This document shows positions 4,591-13,547 of a stretch of DNA of 64,000 nucleotides, in pieces. The first letter of the stretch is position 1; every line of letters starts with the position of its first letter. Origin of the DNA: Porticoccaceae bacterium (lineage in GTDB: Bacteria; Pseudomonadota; Gammaproteobacteria; Pseudomonadales; Porticoccaceae); NCBI GenBank assembly GCA_029254005.1, contig JAQWYJ010000013.1:23630-87629 (forward strand), written 5' to 3'. The translations under genes and the position numbers were made by a program. The notes under the pieces are model-generated. The model was not told where the DNA came from, searched no databases, and saw only the letters and a list, made by a program, of their open reading frames with translations.

Positions 4591-4677
4591 AGTCATCCAA
4601 ATAGTATACCTATCCGAGTGATTTTTATTGACAAACTATAGTCTAATATCACCGTCTATCCCCAGTTCCATTTATAT

Positions 4678-4715
4678 TAAAAGCATACCTGCCCCAGAGT
4701 ACAGGTATGCTTTTA
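4678..4715. terminator. Bidirectional rho-independent terminator
   Basis: Perfect 14-bp inverted repeat TAAAAGCATACCTG-N10-CAGGTATGCTTTTA between convergent genes. Confidence 0.75.
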
Positions 4716-4959
4716 AATTTACCTCAGTATAGTAGTTTGGTGTGAGATTACTTTCTTGAGTTAAGTCTCTGCAAGTTGCCATGGATCGTTTCACAGACAA
4801 GGATGCGGCGGGCAATGTCACCGTAAGTGTCTATATGGACAAGAAATGACGCAGGGAGGCGTCGCTTTGTTAAGCGATGATCTTCTCTGCTGTCTTTTCT
4901 GATAGATCGAATCGAAGACACTGCTAATATCAACTAATACCGTAACGACTAAAGGGTTC

Positions 4960-5637
4960 TTAAAATACCCAACCATAACCAATACTGATGGCAAGAGGGT
5001 CTAAGTCTACGGAAGCGTCCACTAATTGCTCTAATCCTGCGTCAATGGAAACCTCTGTTGAAAGCGTATATTTTTTAATATCTATATTGAAATAATGACG
5101 TTCGCTAACAACGTAATCAAAGCCAGCATTTAACGCAAAACCAAAACCATCCTCATAACTAATATCTAATGCATCACCAGGATCATGGTCAAAGAAAAAC
5201 GTATAATTTATGCCAGCACCAACGTAAGGTGAGAAACCACGCCCAGAGTTAAAATGATACTGCAGTGAAAGTGTTGGTGGCAAAACTTTGGTTGAACCAA
5301 GATTTACGCCGCCATACTCAGTTTCTACCGCAGAAACCATATGTTTCGTATACCCAAGTATTGTCTCAAGGGCAATATTATCGGTTAAAAAATAACGTAT
5401 ATCCAACTCTGGAACTGTATCTGAACTGACCTTTGCCTCACCCCCAATAGAGGTTACTGAGCTCTCATTTGGCCCTAAAGTTAATACTTTTAAACCAACA
5501 AGCCAAGCACCCTTTTTCTTTATTAAATCATCATCAGCACTGACCTGAATTGCTGACAATAGTCCTGTAAAAGCACAGACTAACGATACTGATATATGCT
5601 TTGATATTGATTTCTTTCTCGAAAAATAATTATCCAT
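4960..5637 (-). CDS. OmpW/AlkL-family outer membrane beta-barrel protein
   Basis: Signal peptide, PELDIRYFLTDNIALETILG, LPPTLSLQYHF, PYVGAGINYTFFF, C-terminal IGYGWVF. Confidence 0.9.
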   Translation of the reverse strand: MDNYFSRKKSISKHISVSLVCAFTGLLSAIQVSADDDLIKKKGAWLVGLKVLTLGPNESSVTSIGGEAKVSSDTVPELDIRYFLTDNIALETILGYTKHMVSAVETEYGGVNLGSTKVLPPTLSLQYHFNSGRGFSPYVGAGINYTFFFDHDPGDALDISYEDGFGFALNAGFDYVVSERHYFNIDIKKYTLSTEVSIDAGLEQLVDASVDLDPLAISIGYGWVF

Positions 5638-5723
5638 AAGTTCCTTTGTTGTGCTTTTTAGTCAACCTAGGGCGCACGTTTTAATGTTAGTTACCCAGCC
5701 CAAAAAAGAGCTAATCTATATAT

Positions 5724-5939
5724 TTATAAGACCTCTGAGTTAAACCATTTGTAAGGTTTATCTCCAGCAACCCTGAAATAAAGCACCATGTTGACCATGT
5801 GAGTTAACAGTAAAGTAATACCTATGCCAATGGCCCATACAAGATCCTGATAGTTTTCATGCGCACCCACAGCATAGAGCGCCGAGGCTATAAGTAATGT
5901 CCAAATTGACATTATTAAAAGTGCTTTTAATGTATTCAT
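5724..5939 (-). CDS. Small hypothetical membrane protein (71 aa, two predicted TM helices)
   Basis: Two hydrophobic stretches; its ATG overlaps the ferredoxin stop (TAATG), indicating translational coupling. Confidence 0.7.
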   Translation of the reverse strand: MNTLKALLIMSIWTLLIASALYAVGAHENYQDLVWAIGIGITLLLTHMVNMVLYFRVAGDKPYKWFNSEVL

Positions 5940-6268
5940 TATTTTCTACTCACTTTGTTTTCATTTAAGTTGACGCTCACTGTGATGTCAGATTTCGGCA
6001 CTGACTGGCAAGCAAGTATGTAGCCTTCATTTATTTCAGAAATATCCAAAACATAACCAAAATCCAGTTGCGGTTTAATTTTTCCATCGACAAGTCGGCA
6101 TTTACATTTACCGCAACTACCGACCTTACATTTAAAGGGCCAGGGCACTCCAGCTCCTAAAGCTGAACTCAGCAGTGAGTCTCCACGCTTAACATTGAAG
6201 CTAATATCACTTTCTGTAAGATTAACCTCGAAATTTGCAGGTGAGCGCCTAAAAAAATTCAACATCAT
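5939..6268 (-). CDS. Plant-type 2Fe-2S ferredoxin, resembling the N-terminal domain of XylA/CymAb-type reductases
   Basis: CKVGSCGKC...GYILACQ (CX4CX2C...C); AGGAG upstream. Confidence 0.92.
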   Translation of the reverse strand: MMLNFFRRSPANFEVNLTESDISFNVKRGDSLLSSALGAGVPWPFKCKVGSCGKCKCRLVDGKIKPQLDFGYVLDISEINEGYILACQSVPKSDITVSVNLNENKVSRK

Positions 6269-6323
6269 ATAACTCCTTAATATTCACCATAGCGGTTGGC
6301 CTTAGCAATCAATTGCAAACCTG

Positions 6324-7445
6324 TTAATGTGAAAATTTCTGAGCGATCAATTTTTCTTCAGCTGATGCATATTTCTCGTCCCAATTGTCTAAATATTTTT
6401 GTACGTAGGCTCTAAATAGTGGTGGAATCAGTGTAATGACAAAGAGTGAGAAATAGCCAATTCCATAGTTTGGACCTTCTACATCATCTAACTCCCAAAA
6501 ATAGGTTTCACCCCTTACATGGTGGTCACATTGTCGACCAATTTCGATGAAAAACCAGCTGGTAAAAACTGAATCGTTGTCCCAAGAATGGCGATGTTCT
6601 ACGGGCCCGTCTTTACGAATGAGACCATAATGGCCCATAAAATTGAGTGCTTCTAAAAGAAAGTTAGCGATAACCCAAACAGAAAATAATGCAGCCACGC
6701 CTACGGCACCACCAGCCCAAACAAAGAGTACAATAGAGGGTAAGCTATATAAATAACCCAGGATCCAACGATTATCAATATTTAAGGCGGAAGATCCTCG
6801 TTTACTTAATCGCTGCTGCTCCAAAATATAGGAAAATCGAGATTGGCCCATATGCGAAAGCCATGCATGGGTATAAATATTTCGTCCTCTGGGCGCCGTA
6901 GCCGGATCATCCTCGTGACCGAGGTCTAAGTGGTGGTTATAAACATGAGCATAGGTAAAATGAGCAGCACCACTGAGCGCCATAATAAGCCTAGAAACTA
7001 AGAATCCCTCTTTTTTATTGTGCGACAATTCATGGCCATAGATAATACCTAGTCCTGCCCACAGACCGCTTGAAATTGTCGCGCCAATGAGATTAAAACC
7101 ACTAATTCCTGCTTGGTAACTAAACCCCAAAAAACTACTAATTACTATAGGCGCATCCGCATTGTATTGAAAAATACGGTAGGCTAAGACAACCTGTAGG
7201 GCTATAAAAACCGGTAACATAAAAAACATCACTGAGTACTGTAACTTTTTAATCCCATAGGATTCGCCGCTGTCATCAAAATCAGCTGGCAGGTGAATGT
7301 TTCTGGTAAGGGTATCAATAAGGGTATTGAGTGCGAATAATCCAACACCGACCCAAGTATAAGAGCCGCCAAAAAGAATGCCTAAAATAGCAATAAGAGA
7401 CATAAATGGGACGATCAAATATCGTACATTGACATAAAATTTCAT
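6324..7445 (-). CDS. Membrane non-heme di-iron monooxygenase, AlkB/XylM family (divergent)
   Basis: His boxes HELSH, HVYNHH, NFMGHYG, RQCDHH; DDPATAPRG motif; several TM helices; ITLIPPLF near the C-terminus. Confidence 0.88.
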   Translation of the reverse strand: MKFYVNVRYLIVPFMSLIAILGILFGGSYTWVGVGLFALNTLIDTLTRNIHLPADFDDSGESYGIKKLQYSVMFFMLPVFIALQVVLAYRIFQYNADAPIVISSFLGFSYQAGISGFNLIGATISSGLWAGLGIIYGHELSHNKKEGFLVSRLIMALSGAAHFTYAHVYNHHLDLGHEDDPATAPRGRNIYTHAWLSHMGQSRFSYILEQQRLSKRGSSALNIDNRWILGYLYSLPSIVLFVWAGGAVGVAALFSVWVIANFLLEALNFMGHYGLIRKDGPVEHRHSWDNDSVFTSWFFIEIGRQCDHHVRGETYFWELDDVEGPNYGIGYFSLFVITLIPPLFRAYVQKYLDNWDEKYASAEEKLIAQKFSH

Positions 7446-7626
7446 ACTTTCTCCTAAGATTTACAAATAGTGAATCCTAGGAACTTTACTTCCGTTTTAG
7501 CACTTTATTTTAAATCGCGGCAATAGGATCAAATGACGATGACGCGCAGTATATAGAATTTAAAAGAATATAAAATATATATTTTATATCTAAAATGAAT
7601 ATGCTAAAAACTTTTTGTCTCCACTT

Positions 7627-8973
7627 TTACAGATAAGCATCGTATTCTAAAAGTGTCACTCGACTATCAAATTCATGCTTCTCTTGTCGCTTGCAGCGGG
7701 CATAATTGACCTGTAATTCTGATCCGAGCATGGTCCTTACAAAGACGGAATCTTCGAAAGCATGCAATGCGTCATTCCAAAATTGTGGTAGGGATGGTAC
7801 TACATCACCGGCGTCACCAATGATGGCATTAGGCGCCTTCAAAGAGCGCTCAATACCCCACAAAGCTCCTGCCAAAATAGTAGCCACAGTCAAATATGGA
7901 TTTGCATCAGCGCCAGCAACACGATGTTCAATTCTCATGGCGCGATAATCACCTCCAGGAATACGAACTGCAGTGGTTCGATTTTCATAGCCCCAATTTG
8001 GAGACAAGGGAGCATAGCATCCAGGCACCATGCGTCGATAAGAATTAATATTTGGCGCAAAAATAGCCATGCTATCCGCCATTGTGCTCAGACAACCAGC
8101 TACAGCATTATTGAGTAATTCACTCCCTTCAGAGGTACCATTATCAAATACGTTTTTGCCATCTTGATCCAACAAGCTGAAGTGGATATGCATACCGTTA
8201 CCGACCTGATCAGCAAAGGGTTTAGCCATAAAAGTAGCCAACTTATCATGCTGGTGGGCAACACTTCGAATCGCTCGTTTGAGCATACTACCCTGATCAC
8301 AGGCGCGTAATGCACAATTTTGATGATAAAGGTTAATCTCAAATTGCGACGGCCCAAACTCTGTAATTAGCGTGTCTACGGGTAAATTTTGTGTCTTCGC
8401 AGCATCAATAATAGCATCCATTAAGCCAGCACTGTCACGCATAGTATCAATCCCATAGGTCTGCCCCCCAATGGACGGGCTTCCATCTATCGAGGTTTGC
8501 GTATGACGAGGAACTCCAAACTTATCAGGATCAATTTTTAATAAGTGGAACTCCATCTCACTTGCAACAACAGGCGTTAGCCCTAAAACCTTGAACCGGC
8601 TCAGTATGTTTTGAAGAACAGCTCGACAGTCTCCCAAATATGGTTCGCCACTACCTTCATCAGTCATCGAAACGATAACTTGGGCGGTGGGCTTATCACC
8701 CCAAGGTACTCTGACCAATGTACTGGCATCAGGTACACAAATACCATCAGTATCGCCTGTTGCTGAAATTAACTCTTCTTGATCTCGCCCCCAACAGTCC
8801 AGAGAGCAACTGCTTAAGGGCATTTTAAATCCACCCTCAAATAATTTATATATTTTATCTCTTGGTAACCATTTGCCTCTCTGGGCACCGTTTAGATCAT
8901 GCAAAAGAACCTCAAACATCTCAATATCCGGATTATTCGATAAAAATTGGTCAAGCTGCAAAATTGGCGACAT
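7627..8973 (-). CDS. Gamma-glutamyl-polyamine synthetase (PuuA/PauA-like, glutamine synthetase family)
   Basis: ASEMEFHL, EFGPSQFEINL, FMAKPF, GNGMHIHFSL, WGYENRTTAVRIP, RIEHRVAGADANPYL; near a puuD-like gene. Confidence 0.85.
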   Translation of the reverse strand: MSPILQLDQFLSNNPDIEMFEVLLHDLNGAQRGKWLPRDKIYKLFEGGFKMPLSSCSLDCWGRDQEELISATGDTDGICVPDASTLVRVPWGDKPTAQVIVSMTDEGSGEPYLGDCRAVLQNILSRFKVLGLTPVVASEMEFHLLKIDPDKFGVPRHTQTSIDGSPSIGGQTYGIDTMRDSAGLMDAIIDAAKTQNLPVDTLITEFGPSQFEINLYHQNCALRACDQGSMLKRAIRSVAHQHDKLATFMAKPFADQVGNGMHIHFSLLDQDGKNVFDNGTSEGSELLNNAVAGCLSTMADSMAIFAPNINSYRRMVPGCYAPLSPNWGYENRTTAVRIPGGDYRAMRIEHRVAGADANPYLTVATILAGALWGIERSLKAPNAIIGDAGDVVPSLPQFWNDALHAFEDSVFVRTMLGSELQVNYARCKRQEKHEFDSRVTLLEYDAYL

Positions 8974-9121
8974 AAATTAAGATCTCTAAATTGGGTTTCA
9001 AAGTGGGATTCTACAGTATCTGATAAGGCTACGTTGTTCAGCAAGCCAATAACTACCCTTTGAGGGTATGCAAACTATTGGCTTACAACGTAGTATAAAT
9101 GTTTGGCCATAGGAGCTACTT

Positions 9122-11137
9122 ATGCGTTTAAAAAAACCATCCGTCCTAGCTATTGCGTTAGTAACGCTAGCCCAAGGGTGCATCGAAGAGCAACTAACGC
9201 CAGTAGAAACACTGTTTGTGAATGGCATAATTTATACAGCTAACCAGCAACAACAATTGGTTAGCTCGCTGGGATTGAATAAGGATAAATTAACCTACAT
9301 TGGTGATGCTGAGGGCACCACTAATATTATCGATGAATATACTGAGATCATTGATCTTCAAGGCAAAATGATAATTCCTGGTTTACATGATGTTCACATC
9401 CATCTTCCAGGTATCGTGGAATCTAATAATTGTGATCTTGCTGGAAAAGCTTATTCACTGGCTGAGCTAGTTCCAAGACTCAAACAGTGTATCGCTCGAC
9501 TCAATCTCCCTAAAGGTTCTTGGCTAACCGTTGAACAATGGGGCTATGCTCAAGGCAATGAGCCGTCTGTGAACTTTCCGACCGCGCGTTCAGCACTTGA
9601 TGCTGTTTCACTGGAACATCCGATAATACTCTTGGGCGATGATGGCCATCACGGTGCTGTCAACAGTTACGCCATGAACCTAGCCACGGATAAAAATGGA
9701 GTTAAGGTAGGTCTTAACGCAGAGACACTAGCCAATGAATTCTCAGATCTGAAAAGCTTGATCGGTATTGACCGTCATGGTGAGCCCAATGGTGTACTGA
9801 ACGAAGACGCTCGAAAAATTGTTAACCTACCTAACTTATGGGGCTATCCAGAAGTAGACTTTGAAGTCTATCAAAAGATAGCGGTGCGTTTGGCCGCCTC
9901 AGGTATTACCTCAGCAATGGATGCTGCTTTGAGAATTCATGAAATCGATAATTTTGCAAAATGGGCTAAAAAACAACCATTGACTTATCGACTCACCGCT
10001 GCGTTTTATCCTGAATTTGAAGATTATCGATCAACAACAGATGCGCCAATAGAAATATCAGCGCTTATCGCTGATCTAAAGATTGCTCAAGAGCGACATA
10101 AGGAAATACATAACCTTAAAATTGATACTGCAAAGGTTTTTATCGATGGCGTTATAGAAGGCGACCCTTATGCCTATCCACCAATGTTGCCAAATGCTGC
10201 TGTGCTTCATCACTACCGGCAACCTATATTCACCATAACGGATGATGATTCTCTTGAGGTAGTGGACTATGTGGACACTAACTCAAGAGCCTGCGTGACA
10301 GTTCAAGAAAAAGGAATAGCCAATCTGTCCGGCATTTTTACCCAAAATTTCTATGCGGAAAATGGCTTTTTAGCTTCACAATGTATTAAAAGTAAAGGAG
10401 TTTTAGAAAAAGAATACAGTTTTATCAAAGGTTATACCAAAGCACTTTTTGGGGCAGGGATTAATGTGCATAGTCACGCTATTGGTGATCGGGCAGTGCG
10501 TCTTGCACTGGACACCTTTGATGCGGCAAAACGCGCAAGCCCAAACTCTGAGGCAAATGTCTCCATAGCCCATGCACAATTGATTCATCCTGATGATATT
10601 AGCCGCATTGCTCAGTTAGAGGTTTTTATGGCTTTCACCTATTCTTGGATCGAACCTTTTGATCAATATCAGATGATGGTTTCACCTTTTATTGACAAAG
10701 TATTCAACGAAAATGATCTCTTTGACTCCGACGGTTACGTTTATCAAAACACTTACCCCACCGCATCAGTTAAAAAGGCTGGCGGAATATTAGTTTCAGG
10801 CAGTGATGCGCCGGTTGAAACTCGTGACCCAAGGCCTTTTTTAAATATTGAAAAAGCGGTTACACGCAAGAATGATGTTACCGGCAGAGTATACAACCCG
10901 GACGAGCGCCTCTCTGTTGCTGATATCCTAGATGCCTACACCATAAACGGAGCCAAAATGCTAAATCAAGCAGAGATCACCGGATCACTTGAATTGGGGA
11001 AAAAAGCCGACTTTGTGATTCTAGATCAAAACTTATTAACGTTAGAGGCTGAGGGGAGAAGCGATGAAATATCAGACACTCAGATCCTATCAACCTGGTT
11101 TAATGGCAAAAAAATCTACTCTAAGCCTCAGTCCTGA
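9122..11137 (+). CDS. YtcJ/NfdA-like amidohydrolase (amidohydrolase_3) with lipoprotein signal
   Basis: Lipobox-like LAQGC; PGLHDVHIH, KVFIDG, HSHAIGDRAV, HAQL, GSDAP, GSLELGKKADFVIL. Confidence 0.85.
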   Translation: MRLKKPSVLAIALVTLAQGCIEEQLTPVETLFVNGIIYTANQQQQLVSSLGLNKDKLTYIGDAEGTTNIIDEYTEIIDLQGKMIIPGLHDVHIHLPGIVESNNCDLAGKAYSLAELVPRLKQCIARLNLPKGSWLTVEQWGYAQGNEPSVNFPTARSALDAVSLEHPIILLGDDGHHGAVNSYAMNLATDKNGVKVGLNAETLANEFSDLKSLIGIDRHGEPNGVLNEDARKIVNLPNLWGYPEVDFEVYQKIAVRLAASGITSAMDAALRIHEIDNFAKWAKKQPLTYRLTAAFYPEFEDYRSTTDAPIEISALIADLKIAQERHKEIHNLKIDTAKVFIDGVIEGDPYAYPPMLPNAAVLHHYRQPIFTITDDDSLEVVDYVDTNSRACVTVQEKGIANLSGIFTQNFYAENGFLASQCIKSKGVLEKEYSFIKGYTKALFGAGINVHSHAIGDRAVRLALDTFDAAKRASPNSEANVSIAHAQLIHPDDISRIAQLEVFMAFTYSWIEPFDQYQMMVSPFIDKVFNENDLFDSDGYVYQNTYPTASVKKAGGILVSGSDAPVETRDPRPFLNIEKAVTRKNDVTGRVYNPDERLSVADILDAYTINGAKMLNQAEITGSLELGKKADFVILDQNLLTLEAEGRSDEISDTQILSTWFNGKKIYSKPQS

Positions 11138-11200
11138 GAGCGGGTCAATTATGTAATAGTCAGTCACAGCATGACCAAAACGTTTAGAAAATGTGAATAA

Positions 11201-11995
11201 CTATGATTTTTGTTGATGGCAATATTGGACCTGATTACCAAATTCGGTAAAAATCGCTTTGGAAACAGAGTTAGATTCGAATAACCATTCTGGATGCCAT
11301 TGCAAGCCTAACATCCAGAGAGACGCTTGAGTGTCAGATTTCCACGACACCGCTTCGATTAATCCATCTTCAGCTATCGCCTCTATACAGAGTTGCTCTG
11401 ACAATACATCGATACCCTGACTATGCAGTGAATTAACACTACAACTAACCTGTCCAGTGAGTTCGTGCAACAACCCCCCACTCACAAAATTAACTAAATG
11501 TGCTGTTGCATACTGATCATCTCGAGCAACAGCCTTATCCTCTCTATGATCAATATAGCCCTCAATTTCATGCACTTTTGCATGAAGCGTTCCACCAAGC
11601 GCTACATTTAACTCTTGGAAACCGCGACATACCGCCAGAACAGGAACAGACTGTGCGACGCACTCTTTAATCAATTGAAGCGTAAGGCTATCCCTCTGTG
11701 GGTCTTCCAATGTTCCTGCTTCATGAGCAGGACCATCAAAATGATGGGGTTGGATATTGGAAGGGCTACCGGTCAAAAATAAGCCACTTAAACTAGAGAC
11801 TATATTTTGCACACTGTAAATTTTATTCAAATCGCGTATATCTTTACCATCGCCAAAAGCAGGCAATAGCATTGGCATAACCCCAGCGCCATGAGCCAAA
11901 GCATTAATATATTTTTCTCCAGCACCATGAAATTGATGTGGTCCATTGCTGATGACATCGCAGGCTATTCCAACGATAGGTAAGGTATTGAGCAT
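11201..11995 (-). CDS. puuD: Gamma-glutamyl-gamma-aminobutyrate hydrolase (peptidase C26)
   Basis: GAGEKYI, LTGSPSNIQP, AVCRGFQELNVALGGTLH, NSLHSQG, LGLQWHPEW. Confidence 0.88.
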   Translation of the reverse strand: MLNTLPIVGIACDVISNGPHQFHGAGEKYINALAHGAGVMPMLLPAFGDGKDIRDLNKIYSVQNIVSSLSGLFLTGSPSNIQPHHFDGPAHEAGTLEDPQRDSLTLQLIKECVAQSVPVLAVCRGFQELNVALGGTLHAKVHEIEGYIDHREDKAVARDDQYATAHLVNFVSGGLLHELTGQVSCSVNSLHSQGIDVLSEQLCIEAIAEDGLIEAVSWKSDTQASLWMLGLQWHPEWLFESNSVSKAIFTEFGNQVQYCHQQKS

Positions 11996-12182
11996 ACTCT
12001 ATTAGCCGTATTATTGAGTAACATTACGCCTAGTATTTAGATCTGAGGGTGAATAAGCAAGAGGTTTTTCCCACCCCTTTTGGGTGAATGACCTAAACCA
12101 TCATTTGTGTTCAAATGACGGAAAATTAGTTGGGTAACACCCTTACTCAACGTCTAACAGACCAGCAATAGCGAGAACAATC

Positions 12183-13547
12183 ATGGGTACTGCTAAAACC
12201 ACCACCGAATGGAAAGAACTAGATGCAAAACGACACTTGCATCCATTTACCGATTTTAATGATTACCAAAAAAATCATGGCAGGATTATTGAACGAGCCG
12301 AGCATATTTATATCTACGATACCGATGGCAAACAAATGCTAGATGCCATGTCCGGGCTTTGGTGTTGTAGCTTAGGTTACAGCCAACCAGAAATTGCAGA
12401 AGCAGTGAGTGCTCAGTTTAAGCAGTTACCCTACTACAATAATTTTTTCCAATGTAGCAACACTCCGGCTGTAGAACTTGCAGACAAACTGGTTGAGATG
12501 ACCCCAGAACAGTTTACCCACGTATTTTTTACTAATTCAGGATCTGAAGCTAACGATACCAACATACGATTAATTCGCCGTTACTGGGACATCAAAAAGC
12601 AACCTAAGAAACGCATTATCTTGGCTCGTACCAACGCTTATCACGGTAGTACGATCGCAGCTGCAAGCCTTGGTGGATTTGAATTTGTTCATAATCAATT
12701 TGAAACCCTCCCCTATGCACAACATATCGCTGATCCTAATTGGTACAACAATGGCGGTGACTTAAGCCCCGAGGAATTTGGCTTGCATGCAGCTCGGGAA
12801 CTGGAAAAACGTATTGATCAATTGGGAGAAGAAAATGTAGCGGCCTTTATTGCTGAACCTATTCAGGGAGCCGGTGGAGTCATCGTGCCGCCAGAAAGTT
12901 ACTGGCCTGAGGTTCGTCGCATACTAAATGAGCGTGACATTTTATTTGTTAGTGACGAGGTTATTTGTGGTTTTGGTCGCACAGGTAATATGTTTGGATG
13001 TGAAACCTATTCAATGGAACCTGATTTACTTACCTTCGCAAAAGCGGTGACCAATGGATTTCAACCTTTGGGTGGCGTCATGGTGAGTGAAAAAGTAGCT
13101 GATGTTATTACTGGTGATGGAGGTGAATTTGGCCATGGTTTTACTTATTCCGGTCACCCTATTGCCTGTGCAGCTGCCCTGGCCACCTTAAATATTATGC
13201 AACGGGATAAATTTGTTGACCATGTGGCTAATGACATTGGACCCTATTTACAAGCTAAATGGGCCGGTCTTGCCGATCATCCTATCGTGGGCCATGTCCG
13301 TGGCGTTGGCATGCTTGGCTCCATAGAATTAGTACGTGACAAAGAAAGTCGTGAGCGTCTTGAAACCGATCAAAAATCAGGCGGAGTTTGTCGCGAATTT
13401 TGCGTAGCCAACGGACTTATTATGCGTGCAGTGGGTGATTCCATGATAATCTCTCCGCCGTTTGTTACGTCACACCAAGAAATTGATTTGTTGATCGCAA
13501 GAGCAACCAAATCCTTAGACCAAACGGCTGACTATTACGCCCTCTAG
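12183..13547 (+). CDS. Class III PLP aminotransferase, SpuC-like (diamine/omega-amino acid:pyruvate)
   Basis: HLHPFTD, DAMSGLWCCSLGY, FTNSGSEAND, AFIAEPIQGAGG, DEVICGFGRTG, FAKAVTNG, HGFTYSGHP. Confidence 0.88.
   Translation: MGTAKTTTEWKELDAKRHLHPFTDFNDYQKNHGRIIERAEHIYIYDTDGKQMLDAMSGLWCCSLGYSQPEIAEAVSAQFKQLPYYNNFFQCSNTPAVELADKLVEMTPEQFTHVFFTNSGSEANDTNIRLIRRYWDIKKQPKKRIILARTNAYHGSTIAAASLGGFEFVHNQFETLPYAQHIADPNWYNNGGDLSPEEFGLHAARELEKRIDQLGEENVAAFIAEPIQGAGGVIVPPESYWPEVRRILNERDILFVSDEVICGFGRTGNMFGCETYSMEPDLLTFAKAVTNGFQPLGGVMVSEKVADVITGDGGEFGHGFTYSGHPIACAAALATLNIMQRDKFVDHVANDIGPYLQAKWAGLADHPIVGHVRGVGMLGSIELVRDKESRERLETDQKSGGVCREFCVANGLIMRAVGDSMIISPPFVTSHQEIDLLIARATKSLDQTADYYAL

What the first reader, a model, noticed from the sequence alone, without database searches (positions are those of the whole stretch)
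4960..7445. Self-contained four-gene membrane monooxygenase cassette of unknown substrate (best novel-system candidate)
Seen: co-oriented AlkB/XylM-type hydroxylase, then ferredoxin, 71-aa membrane protein and OmpW/AlkL-like porin, with short gaps and one TAATG overlap. Known: AlkB uses rubredoxin, XylM/CymAa use a fused ferredoxin-reductase, and AlkL imports hydrophobic substrates. This cassette matches neither architecture and carries no regulator, reductase or alcohol/aldehyde dehydrogenase. Inference: an uptake-plus-oxidation module for a hydrophobic marine compound (terpenoid, alkyl-aromatic, algal alkane or lipid).
Basis: partly seen in the sequence, partly recalled or inferred. Interest (0 to 1): 0.72.

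Follow-up and report, generated by a model that had tools for sequence, protein, structure and literature searches.

The report
SAM-switched AlkB-like oxygenase cassette
The four genes are real and form one insertable block. A methionine-status (SAM) riboswitch controls it, so it is probably not a hydrocarbon-eating module but a membrane iron oxygenase that frees sulfur, perhaps from the climate gas dimethylsulfide, for making methionine.

Summary
On the minus strand lie an AlkB/XylM-type membrane hydroxylase (7445..6324), a 2Fe-2S ferredoxin (6268..5939), a 71-aa two-helix membrane protein (5939..5724) and an OmpW porin (5637..4960). Six same-genus genomes have an empty site, so window 4591-7626 is one 3-kb indel block.

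Only hydroxylase, ferredoxin and small protein are conserved widely, in about 63 of 82 loci across Gamma- and Alphaproteobacteria and Acidimicrobiia. OmpW is a Porticoccaceae addition. The hydroxylase belongs to a deep, uncharacterised clade beside XylM. In it one iron-binding histidine is always glutamine (RQxDHH).

A SAM-II-like riboswitch sits in the hydroxylase leader (7476-7550). Orthologous operons elsewhere carry SAM-I/IV hits above Rfam's threshold and SAM-V elements just below it.

In Methylophaga the sister cluster occurs only in the 3 of 37 genomes that also have methanethiol oxidase. Genes annotated like its components were induced 29- to 136-fold on DMS in a published transcriptome.

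Best reading: a SAM-repressed oxygenase that releases methanethiol from DMS or a related methyl-sulfur compound for MetY. The substrate is inferred, not shown.

The parts
4591..7626 (.). 3.04-kb indel block that holds the whole cassette, lying between the stop of the FtsN-like SPOR gene (4590) and the stop of the PuuA-like gene (7627)
   Evidence: In same-genus genomes G043, G015 and G077 the two stops are 0-90 bp apart. The PriA-to-PuuA-like spacing in G054, G063 and G071 implies the same. All six lack the hydroxylase and the OmpW orthologue. Block GC is 0.389, against 0.412 and 0.436 in the flanks.
7567..7594 (-). Promoter-like site (TTTAGA, 16 nt, TATATT) just upstream of the riboswitch-like element
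   Evidence: Consensus scan, 9 of 12 matches. This is a prediction only.
7476..7550 (-). SAM-II-like riboswitch aptamer in the hydroxylase leader
   Evidence: RF00521 at 23.8 bits (gathering score 36). It is the best hit in the whole genome; the next scores 15.4. The same element lies at the same place in L005, L006, L007, L009 and L010 at 24-31.5 bits. Almost all subclade A leaders across phyla share its core. The P1 helix shows compensatory changes: pair 17/43 AU to GC in 4 sequences, and pair 16/44 AU, UA or CG. The proposed pseudoknot pair 29/66 changes UA to CG in 3 sequences.
7446..7475 (-). Expression platform: a GGAA...UUCC hairpin and a hairpin that covers the AGGAG ribosome-binding site
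   Evidence: The minimum-energy fold pairs UCCUAGGAUUC with AAUCUUAGGA over the ribosome-binding site. The z-score is not significant, so the switching model is inference.
6324..7445 (-). Gln-box AlkB/XylM-type membrane di-iron hydroxylase, 373 aa
   Evidence: PF00487. Sequence match to the solved AlkB 8sbb, E 1e-28. AF2 model pTM 0.84, and the only structural matches are AlkB 8f6t and 8sbb, TM 0.62-0.70. Motifs are HELSH, HVYNHH, NFMGHYG and RQCDHH. The clade is monophyletic with support 99 and sits next to XylM.
5939..6268 (-). Plant-type 2Fe-2S ferredoxin, 109 aa
   Evidence: PF00111. It is 50% identical to the N-terminal Fer2 domain of the fused Fer2-FNR reductase of the Methylophaga-type cluster. 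It follows the hydroxylase in 53 loci as a free protein and in 14 as the fusion.
5724..5939 (-). Conserved 71-aa membrane protein with two predicted helices, probably a subunit of the oxygenase
   Evidence: No Pfam or NCBIfam family. Present in 63 of 82 loci in all three cellular subclades. Conserved motif: WT...LY...AH..Y...WA....LL.tH..NM.iYF..aG..PY.WF.
5638..5723 (-). Leader of ompW: a diverged relic of a SAM-V-like element
   Evidence: The homologous spacer in L006 and L007 hits RF01826 SAM_V at 38.2-38.4 bits (gathering score 41). The alignment shows that the window and L005 keep the GUGCGCC...GCAC stem but have lost AUUUGAUUU and CUAAAGAG. The window gave no Rfam hit here.
4960..5637 (-). 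OmpW-family outer-membrane channel, 225 aa, with a signal peptide
   Evidence: PF03922 at 141.7 bits. It is 34-42% identical to assorted OmpW proteins and not specifically AlkL-like. It is present only with the cassette within the genus. A metatranscriptome contig from a relative about 90% identical spans 5507-5772, that is ompW, the spacer and the end of the small gene.
4848..4863 (-). Terminator-like hairpin after ompW
   Evidence: Pattern scan. No such site lies between the small gene and ompW.

Best explanation
Window 4591-7626 is a horizontally acquired operon switched by SAM. It encodes a membrane di-iron monooxygenase of a distinct 'Gln-box' branch of the AlkB/XylM superfamily, its dedicated 2Fe-2S ferredoxin, a conserved two-helix membrane subunit and, in this lineage, an OmpW channel.

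Proposed mechanism:
- When SAM is low, the leader RNA lets the operon be translated.
- OmpW lets a small hydrophobic methyl-sulfur compound, most likely dimethylsulfide, cross the outer membrane.
- NAD(P)H electrons pass through a housekeeping ferredoxin-NADP reductase (an Fpr-like gene is on contig C113) to the ferredoxin, and from there to the di-iron site.
- The enzyme hydroxylates an S-methyl group. The hemithioacetal falls apart into methanethiol and formaldehyde.
- The genome's MetY-like O-acetylhomoserine sulfhydrylase turns methanethiol directly into methionine.

Shown here: the genes, the indel block, the clade, the altered metal ligands, the conserved leader element, and the SAM-I/IV riboswitches above threshold in orthologous operons. 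Also shown is the co-occurrence and linkage of the sister cluster with methanethiol oxidase in Methylophaga.

Inferred: SAM binding by the window's variant aptamer, the electron route, the role of the small protein, and above all the substrate.
For: Regulation:
- An RF00521-like element lies in the leader. It is the top hit genome-wide and is conserved across phyla.
- SAM-I/IV scores 50.5-58.1 bits (gathering score 41.1) before the operon in L019, L033, L037, L052 and L053. It is followed in tandem by a SAM-V element (Rfam hit 40.6 bits in L053; recognised by sequence in L052-L055).
- SAM-V-like hits precede ompW in L006 and L007.
- In SAR11 such switches control metY, bhmT and mmuM and respond to sulfur limitation (PMC5069961).

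Genomic context:
- A MetY-like gene lies next to the hydroxylase in Acidimicrobiia and Kangiella.
- The window's own genome has a MetY-like gene and no MtoX.

DMS link:
- The sister cluster is hydroxylase, globin, GST, Fer2-FNR, small protein and FadL.
- It is found in exactly the 3 of 37 Methylophaga genomes that have SBP56/MtoX, 8-24 kb from mtoX (Fisher p 1.3e-4).
- One of these hydroxylases is 99% identical to that of M. sulfidovorans.
- In M. thiooxydans a 'fatty acid desaturase domain protein', a FadL-type protein, an NAD-binding oxidoreductase and glbN rose 136-, 82-, 52- and 29-fold on DMS.
- No known DMS enzyme exists in that genus (PMC6548844).

Against alkane use: a canonical AlkB locus lies elsewhere in the genome.

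Expression in the sea: transcript contigs from relatives.
Against: - No enzyme assay exists for any member of the clade.
- The window's aptamer scores below Rfam's gathering threshold (23.8 against 36). It could bind another ligand or be a decayed switch, and the ompW leader here looks decayed.
- The DMS evidence comes from the switchless sister branch, which is about 55% identical. It rests on annotation matches to M. thiooxydans genes whose orthology I could not verify by sequence.
- The window's subclade has Gly where that branch and AlkB have the Fe2-side Glu, so its chemistry may differ.
- This genome has cysJ, the flavoprotein subunit of assimilatory sulfite reductase, so it is probably not a sulfur auxotroph; the rest of that pathway was not checked.
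- DMS is small and may not need a porin.
- Six of seven other genus members sampled do well without the cassette.
Confidence: 0.45

Rival explanations
1. It is an alkane hydroxylase for medium- or long-chain alkanes such as cyanobacterial pentadecane, as marine surveys assume when they count these genes as alkB. The ferredoxin simply replaces rubredoxin, and OmpW plays the part of AlkL.
For: Homology to AlkB in sequence and fold. Sources name relatives 'alkane 1-monooxygenase'. Ferredoxin-linked AlkB fusions are active on alkanes (PMC8918992). OmpW and FadL channels fit hydrophobic substrates. The clade is abundant in surface-ocean bacteria.
Against: SAM riboswitches have no logic for carbon catabolism. 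No alcohol or aldehyde dehydrogenase is linked in any subclade A locus. Two Fe2-side ligands of AlkB are changed. The genome has a canonical AlkB with an AraC regulator. In Methylophaga the cluster follows methanethiol oxidase and DMS induction.
Confidence: 0.12
2. It oxidatively demethylates, or otherwise oxidises, a different metabolite tied to the methionine/SAM cycle. Candidates are methylthio-ethanol, ethyl methyl sulfide, 3-methylmercaptopropionate and methylthioadenosine-derived thioethers. The product would be a thiol or a C1 unit. DMS would be only a side substrate.
For: The same regulatory evidence applies. The anaerobic analogue, methylthio-alkane reductase, accepts several methylthio-alkanes for methionine synthesis (PMC13753814). 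The window's subclade differs from the DMS-linked branch at the Glu/Gly ligand position.
Against: The only physiological data point to DMS. A membrane-embedded active site and hydrophobic-solute channels fit charged substrates poorly.
Confidence: 0.2
3. It is a lipid-modifying desaturase or hydroxylase that remodels membrane lipids. This is how Kroeber and Schaefer read the Methylophaga gene. The ferredoxin would serve as donor, as in cyanobacterial acyl-lipid desaturases.
For: The Pfam family is FA_desaturase. Phage-borne copies lack partners, like phage lipid desaturases.
Against: The AlkB/XylM-specific N(Y/F)xxHYG box, the AlkB fold and the position beside XylM. Outer-membrane uptake channels sit in two subclades. 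SAM control and MtoX co-occurrence have no link to lipid repair.
Confidence: 0.08
4. It is a catabolic uptake-plus-oxidation module for a hydrophobic carbon source such as a terpenoid or an alkyl-aromatic.
For: Full-length 26-28% identity to XylM, which hydroxylates methyl groups on aromatics, and a sister position in the tree. XylM-like logic of hydroxylase, Fer2(-FNR) and outer-membrane channel.
Against: As for the alkane rival: SAM control, no downstream dehydrogenases, and a free-standing three-gene unit in streamlined genomes with unrelated flanks.
Confidence: 0.07

Closest known systems
Xylene monooxygenase XylM/XylA with the XylN channel (TOL plasmid pWW0), and CymAa/CymAb
   Same: Similar length (369-373 aa) and alignable from end to end at 26-28% identity. 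Nearest reference branch in the tree. Methyl-group hydroxylase. The electron partner has a plant-type 2Fe-2S domain. In the sister subclade it is the same Fer2-FNR fusion, followed by a FadL/TodX channel.
   Different: The third His box is RQxDHH instead of NHINHH. In the window the ferredoxin is free and no reductase is encoded. There is an extra conserved 2-TM protein. No benzyl-alcohol or benzaldehyde dehydrogenase genes are present. Regulation is by a SAM riboswitch instead of XylR/XylS.
Alkane 1-monooxygenase AlkB with rubredoxin AlkG and the AlkL channel (P. putida GPo1; FtAlkB structures 8F6T and 8SBB)
   Same: Same fold (TM 0.62-0.70). Eight of the nine iron-binding histidines are kept. 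The HYG box is present. AlkL also belongs to the OmpW family.
   Different: About 27% identity over the core only. The position of His311 is Gln and that of Glu271 is Gly. The partner is a ferredoxin, not a rubredoxin. It forms a separate clade. A true AlkB exists elsewhere in this genome.
Ferredoxin-ferredoxin reductase-AlkB fusion proteins (Limnobacter, Leptospira, Polaromonas; Nie 2014, Williams 2021)
   Same: An AlkB-type hydroxylase served by a 2Fe-2S ferredoxin rather than rubredoxin.
   Different: Those are single-chain fusions, and the one that was expressed was shown to be active. Here the proteins are separate. I did not test whether the fusions belong to the Gln-box clade.
DMS monooxygenase DmoA/DmoB (Hyphomicrobium) and methylthio-alkane reductase MAR (Rhodospirillum)
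   Same: The proposed net reaction (DMS to methanethiol) and, for MAR, the proposed purpose: methanethiol for methionine synthesis (PMC6548844; PMC13753814).
   Different: Neither is homologous. DmoA is a soluble flavin-dependent enzyme, and MAR is a nitrogenase-like anaerobic reductase. This would be a membrane di-iron, oxygen-dependent route.
SAM-II, SAM-V and SAM-I/IV riboswitch regulons of marine bacteria (SAR11 metY, bhmT, mmuM)
   Same: The same aptamer classes, tandem SAM-I/IV plus SAM-V arrangements, and marine oligotroph hosts.
   Different: I found no record in the papers searched of these switches controlling an AlkB-like oxygenase operon or an OmpW gene.

Membership tests
AlkB alkane 1-monooxygenase (rubredoxin-dependent) | AlkB fold with six transmembrane helices | tested here: met
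   AF2 model pTM 0.84. Foldseek finds only 8f6t and 8sbb, TM 0.62-0.70.
AlkB alkane 1-monooxygenase (rubredoxin-dependent) | Nine conserved iron-binding histidines plus Glu271 (FtAlkB numbering) | tested here: not met
   Eight His are kept. The His311 position is Gln in all 82 cellular and 57 viral clade members. The Glu271 position is Gly in the window's subclade.
AlkB alkane 1-monooxygenase (rubredoxin-dependent) | Rubredoxin as electron partner | tested here: not met
   There is no rubredoxin in the cassette. A 2Fe-2S ferredoxin follows the hydroxylase in 67 of 82 loci.
AlkB alkane 1-monooxygenase (rubredoxin-dependent) | Groups with characterised AlkBs in a tree | tested here: not met
   It forms a separate clade with support 99. 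The AlkB references group apart, together with the genome's other type of AlkB.
AlkB alkane 1-monooxygenase (rubredoxin-dependent) | Terminal hydroxylation of n-alkanes | not testable with these tools
   This needs an enzyme assay.
XylM/XylA-type xylene monooxygenase | Groups within the XylM clade | tested here: inconclusive
   It is sister to XylM with support 86-87, but on a long stem. Identity is only 26-28%.
XylM/XylA-type xylene monooxygenase | Fused Fer2-FNR reductase (XylA) encoded beside the hydroxylase | tested here: not met
   The window has only the Fer2 part. The fusion is present in the sister subclade.
XylM/XylA-type xylene monooxygenase | HxxHH third His box and linked alcohol and aldehyde dehydrogenases | tested here: not met
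   The box reads RQCDHH against NHINHH, and no dehydrogenases are present.
SAM-II riboswitch (RF00521) | Score at or above Rfam's gathering threshold | tested here: not met
   23.8 bits against 36 in the window, and 24-31.5 in relatives.
SAM-II riboswitch (RF00521) | Conserved core, a P1 helix with compensatory changes, and a place in the 5' leader next to the ribosome-binding site | tested here: met
   The AUUUGA, UUGC and GCUAAAA blocks are invariant or nearly so in 38 leaders. P1 pairs 16/44 and 17/43 change on both sides. It is the best hit genome-wide.
SAM-II riboswitch (RF00521) | Binds SAM and represses expression | not testable with these tools
   Support is indirect only: SAM-I/IV hits above threshold before orthologous operons.
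OmpW family (PF03922) | Profile match over the curated cut-off, and a signal peptide | tested here: met
   141.7 bits against a cut-off of 24. The N-terminal signal sequence is visible in the translation.
Plant-type 2Fe-2S ferredoxin (PF00111) | Profile match and the C-x4-C-x2-C...C cluster ligands | tested here: met
   55.1 bits. Cys47, Cys52, Cys55 and Cys87 are read from the translation.
DMS monooxygenase (as a function, not a homology family) | Converts DMS to methanethiol and formaldehyde | not testable with these tools
   Circumstantial evidence only: MtoX co-occurrence in 3 of 37 genomes, and a published DMS-induced transcriptome.

The most novel reading that the evidence does not exclude
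The Gln-box AlkB/XylM clade, with its ferredoxin and 2-TM subunit, is a membrane-bound, oxygen-dependent DMS (methylthio) monooxygenase. It would be the long-missing first enzyme of DMS degradation in Methylophaga. In its SAM-riboswitch-controlled form, in SAR86, SAR92/Porticoccaceae, OCS116, marine Acidimicrobiia and others, it would be a widespread route by which surface-ocean bacteria take sulfur from DMS for methionine. If so, a large share of the marine 'alkB' genes counted in hydrocarbon-cycle surveys, including phage-borne copies, belong to the sulfur cycle instead.
Probability: 0.35. Interest if true: 0.92.

Novelty: new variant of a known kind. Interest (0 to 1): 0.8.

Why it matters
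DMS is the main biogenic sulfur gas leaving the ocean. The enzymes that consume it in most marine bacteria are poorly known, and in Methylophaga the first step has been unidentified since 2010 (PMC6548844).

This cassette gives a concrete, testable candidate: three small genes that can be expressed, plus an RNA whose ligand can be measured. It also gives a cultured carrier (Kangiella sp. HZ709) and two cultured DMS degraders that carry or probably carry the sister cluster.

The finding also questions the practice of counting every AlkB-profile hit in seawater as alkane degradation. More than 1,100 protein clusters and 185 stretches on viral contigs fall in this clade.

For enzymology it offers a natural di-iron site in which one histidine ligand, and in one branch also the neighbouring glutamate, is replaced.

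Tried and rejected
- **Functional link to the neighbouring gamma-glutamyl-polyamine genes (PuuA-like, PuuD-like).** Rejected, because the cassette is an insertion beside them.
- **Mobile-element borders.** No flanking direct or inverted repeats of note. There is only a 15-bp perfect hairpin at 4677-4716.
- **A dedicated reductase in the genome.** The only Fer2-FNR protein is NqrF-like. An Fpr-like gene (C113) and cysJ (C94) are the other NAD_binding_1 proteins.
- **AlkL-like identity of OmpW.** It is a generic OmpW.
- **Wider search for the small protein with a single sequence.** Only 7 hits, limited by the word index.
- **RNA-seq of the same sample (X21).** Nothing could be laid on the stretch.
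- **Sequence of MDMS009_226.** The supplement that holds the sequences was cut when stored, so orthology with the M. thiooxydans gene stays unverified.
- **Poiata et al. 2009 (SAM-V paper).** Not held.
- **First pseudoknot string for the count of structure pairs.** It nested two helices wrongly. Only the P1 figures are used, and the pseudoknot pair counts come.
- **MFE fold of the leader.** No significant z-score.
Full report
**1. Observation**

- a 373-aa protein at 7445..6324
- a 109-aa protein at 6268..5939
- a 71-aa protein at 5939..5724, whose start overlaps the ferredoxin stop in TAATG
- a 225-aa protein at 5637..4960

Pfam assigns them to FA_desaturase (82.7 bits), Fer2 (55.1 bits), no family, and OmpW (141.7 bits). 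NCBIfam has no model for the first or the third. The block encodes no reductase, protein regulator or dehydrogenase. The neighbours are PriA and an FtsN-like SPOR protein on one side. On the other side are a PuuA-like glutamine-synthetase-family gene, an amidohydrolase and a PuuD-like gene.

**2. The cassette is a discrete unit**

The closest relatives are Porticoccaceae (SAR92/HTCC2207-type) genomes. I scanned 81 genomes of the family.
- The seven other same-genus genomes sampled have no clade hydroxylase. They carry only a distant AlkB at 28-30% identity. They also have no orthologue of this OmpW.
- In six of the seven, PriA, the FtsN-like gene and the PuuA-like gene are adjacent.
- In the three I read, the two convergent stops are 0-90 bp apart, against 3.04 kb in the window.

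Window 4591-7626 is therefore one presence/absence block that holds exactly the four genes. Its GC (0.389) is slightly below that of the flanks. No transposon-like borders were found.

**3. What is conserved elsewhere**

- The hydroxylase has more than 1,100 relatives in the 90%-clustered protein collection. Sources name them 'fatty acid desaturase' or 'alkane 1-monooxygenase'.
- It has 316 relatives in species-representative genomes.
- Among the 80 best loci plus four metagenome loci, tblastn and ORF clustering give 53 loci with the free ferredoxin and 14 with a Fer2-FNR fusion. The small membrane protein is in 63 of 82 loci.
- OmpW is present only in the window and four Porticoccaceae loci that share the whole neighbourhood.

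The widely conserved unit is thus three genes, and OmpW is a lineage-specific addition.

Flanks of the three-gene unit differ from lineage to lineage and are housekeeping genes. The exception is a MetY-type PLP enzyme. It lies directly upstream in marine Acidimicrobiia and divergently in Kangiella.

The small protein has two predicted helices and a well-conserved motif with His and Asn in the second helix. I read it as a subunit. That is inference.

**4. Place in the superfamily**

- *Sequence.* The protein matches solved AlkB structures at E 1e-28 over the core. It aligns end to end with XylM at 26-28% identity.
- *Fold.* An AF2 model (pLDDT 77.9, pTM 0.84) has only AlkB as a structural match, TM 0.62-0.70.
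- *Tree.* With XylM, XylM-like, rubredoxin-type AlkB and Fer2-FNR-linked AlkB-like references, the 82 sequences form one clade. Its support is 99 and its stem is long. It is sister to XylM (support 86-87) and apart from AlkB.
- *Iron site.* In every member the third His box reads RQxDHH. The glutamine replaces FtAlkB His311, an Fe2 ligand. In the window's subclade the glutamate next to the HYG histidine (FtAlkB Glu271, close to the substrate methyl) is glycine. XylM has Gln there and AlkB has Glu.

Three cellular subclades appear:
- **A**, which includes the window: free ferredoxin and NFMGHYG.
- **C**, Rhodobiaceae and some Porticoccaceae: a truncated globin between hydroxylase and ferredoxin.
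- **B**, Methylophaga and allies: a long cluster (see section 6).

**5.

- Rfam finds a SAM-II (RF00521) match in the hydroxylase leader at 7476-7550 (minus strand). It scores 23.8 bits, below the gathering score of 36.
- It is the best hit in the whole genome; the next scores 15.4.
- The same element sits at the same place in five relatives at 24-31.5 bits.
- Reading the 140 nt upstream of every hydroxylase showed that almost all subclade A leaders share one core. This holds in SAR86, Alphaproteobacteria, Kangiella, Woeseiaceae, Porticoccaceae and, in a variant form, Acidimicrobiia. The core is AUCGUGAUUUGAUCCUAUUGCCGCGAUUUAAAAGAAGGUGCUAAAACGGAA.
- P1 shows compensatory changes: AU to GC at pair 17/43, and AU, UA or CG at pair 16/44. 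A proposed pseudoknot pair changes UA to CG in Acidimicrobiia.

The decisive result comes from operons without this element. They carry other SAM classes:
- SAM-I/IV scores 50.5-58.1 bits (gathering score 41.1) before the operon in L019, L033 and L037, and in L052 and L053.
- In L052 and L053 it stands in tandem with a SAM-V element at the ribosome-binding site. L053 gave an Rfam hit of 40.6 bits (gathering score 41). L052-L055 were recognised by sequence.
- In the HTCC2207-type genomes ompW has its own SAM-V-like leader at 38 bits.
- In the window and its closest relative that spacer is homologous but has lost the U-rich strand, so it looks decayed.

Three aptamer classes before orthologous operons make SAM control of this operon family well supported. 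SAM binding by the window's own variant remains inferred. A hairpin that covers the AGGAG site is predicted, but the switching model is inference.

**6. What the enzyme may do**

In SAR11, SAM-V and SAM-II switches control metY, bhmT and mmuM. They respond to sulfur limitation by directing sulfur to methionine, and MetY uses methanethiol (PMC5069961).

The subclade B cluster reads as follows:
- divergent NorQ/CbbQ-type AAA+ protein and VWA protein
- hydroxylase
- truncated globin
- small 4Fe-4S ferredoxin
- GST
- Fer2-FNR
- small membrane protein
- FadL/TodX channel
- a second globin
- in one genome also a LysR regulator and mtoX, 8 kb away

One such locus has a hydroxylase 99% identical to that of Methylophaga sulfidovorans, a DMS degrader.

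Among the 37 genomes held for that genus, the hydroxylase is in exactly three, and SBP56/methanethiol oxidase is in exactly the same three. The two genes lie 8-24 kb apart (Fisher p 1.3e-4).

Kroeber and Schaefer's transcriptome of M. thiooxydans compared growth on DMS with growth on methanol (PMC6548844, Table S6):

| Annotated gene | Expression on DMS | Expression on methanol |
|---|---|---|
| FadL-type 'aromatic hydrocarbon degradation' membrane protein | 1469 | 18 |
| NAD-binding oxidoreductase | 618 | 12 |
| glbN | 601 | 21 |

The authors found no known DMS enzyme in the genus. They read the desaturase as lipid repair. The annotations match the cluster's composition, but I could not verify orthology by sequence.

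Chemically, hydroxylating an S-methyl group gives a hemithioacetal that decomposes to methanethiol and formaldehyde. This is the same net reaction as the unrelated flavoenzyme DmoA. The nitrogenase-like methylthio-alkane reductase does the anaerobic counterpart for methionine synthesis (PMC13753814).

The window's genome has:
- a MetY-like gene and no MtoX, which fits assimilation rather than catabolism
- an Fpr-like ferredoxin-NADP reductase that could feed the ferredoxin
- a canonical AlkB, 52% identical to Marinobacter AlkB, with an AraC-type regulator and a TonB-dependent receptor beside it, so alkane oxidation is already covered

**7. Expression**

Seawater metatranscriptome contigs from relatives about 90% identical cover parts of the hydroxylase, the ferredoxin/small-gene junction and ompW. 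One 266-nt contig runs from ompW across the spacer into the small gene. This fits co-transcription. DNA carry-over cannot be excluded.

**8. Verdict**

- Supported: a new branch of AlkB/XylM oxygenases with an unusual partner set, probably acting on an imported hydrophobic compound.
- Not supported: the absence of a regulator, and a role in hydrocarbon or terpenoid catabolism.

My best explanation is a SAM-repressed oxygenase that liberates methanethiol from DMS or a related methylthio compound. I hold it at about 0.45, and the specific DMS claim at about 0.35.

The papers searched do not describe this. An earlier agent of this scan reached the same reading on a SAR86 genome. I saw that note only after my own analysis, and it is not independent evidence.

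- the empty-site proof of a four-gene block
- the SAM-V-led ompW
- the 3-of-37 MtoX co-occurrence with physical linkage
- the genome's own MetY, Fpr and canonical AlkB context

Noticed in passing
L099-L178 (IMG/VR viral contigs): 185 stretches on predicted viral contigs encode clade members at 51-59% identity that keep RQxDHH. None of the 80 examined has the ferredoxin or small protein nearby. Flanks include T4-like neck proteins, ribonucleotide reductase and PRPP synthase. Two large purely viral groups nest inside subclade B. A preprint counts such genes as viral alkB.
   Followed up: partly
G000 contig C116, locus L097:4203-5387 (-): The same genome has a canonical nine-histidine AlkB, 52% identical to Marinobacter AlkB. 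An AraC/CypR-like regulator and a TonB-dependent receptor flank it. All genus members sampled but one have this type.
   Followed up: yes
L060:2797-12095, L191:360-12068: The Methylophaga-type cluster pairs the hydroxylase with a NorQ/CbbQ-type AAA+ protein and a VWA protein, which may act as a metal-insertion chaperone pair. It also has two truncated globins, a 59-aa 4Fe-4S ferredoxin, a GST and an SCO4226-like protein. Their roles are unexplained.
   Followed up: partly
L052:5768-5994, L053:5775-5991: A tandem SAM-I/IV plus SAM-V arrangement lies before one operon in Rhodobiaceae-type genomes. It resembles the SAM-II/SAM-V tandem known from SAR11 bhmT.
   Followed up: partly
window 4677-4716: A perfect 15-bp inverted repeat with a 10-nt loop (TTAAAAGCATACCTG / CAGGTATGCTTTTAA) lies in the 369-bp non-coding stretch between the FtsN-like stop and the ompW stop. 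It may be a bidirectional terminator or a scar of the insertion.
   Followed up: no
window 7627-13547: PuuA-like, amidohydrolase, PuuD-like and aminotransferase genes lie next to the cassette. The empty-site comparison shows that the cassette was inserted beside them, so no functional link is implied.
   Followed up: partly
G000 contig C102, locus L098:2619-3449 (-): A third FA_desaturase-family gene (276 aa, CrtR/CrtW-like) lies next to a TetR-type regulator.
   Followed up: no
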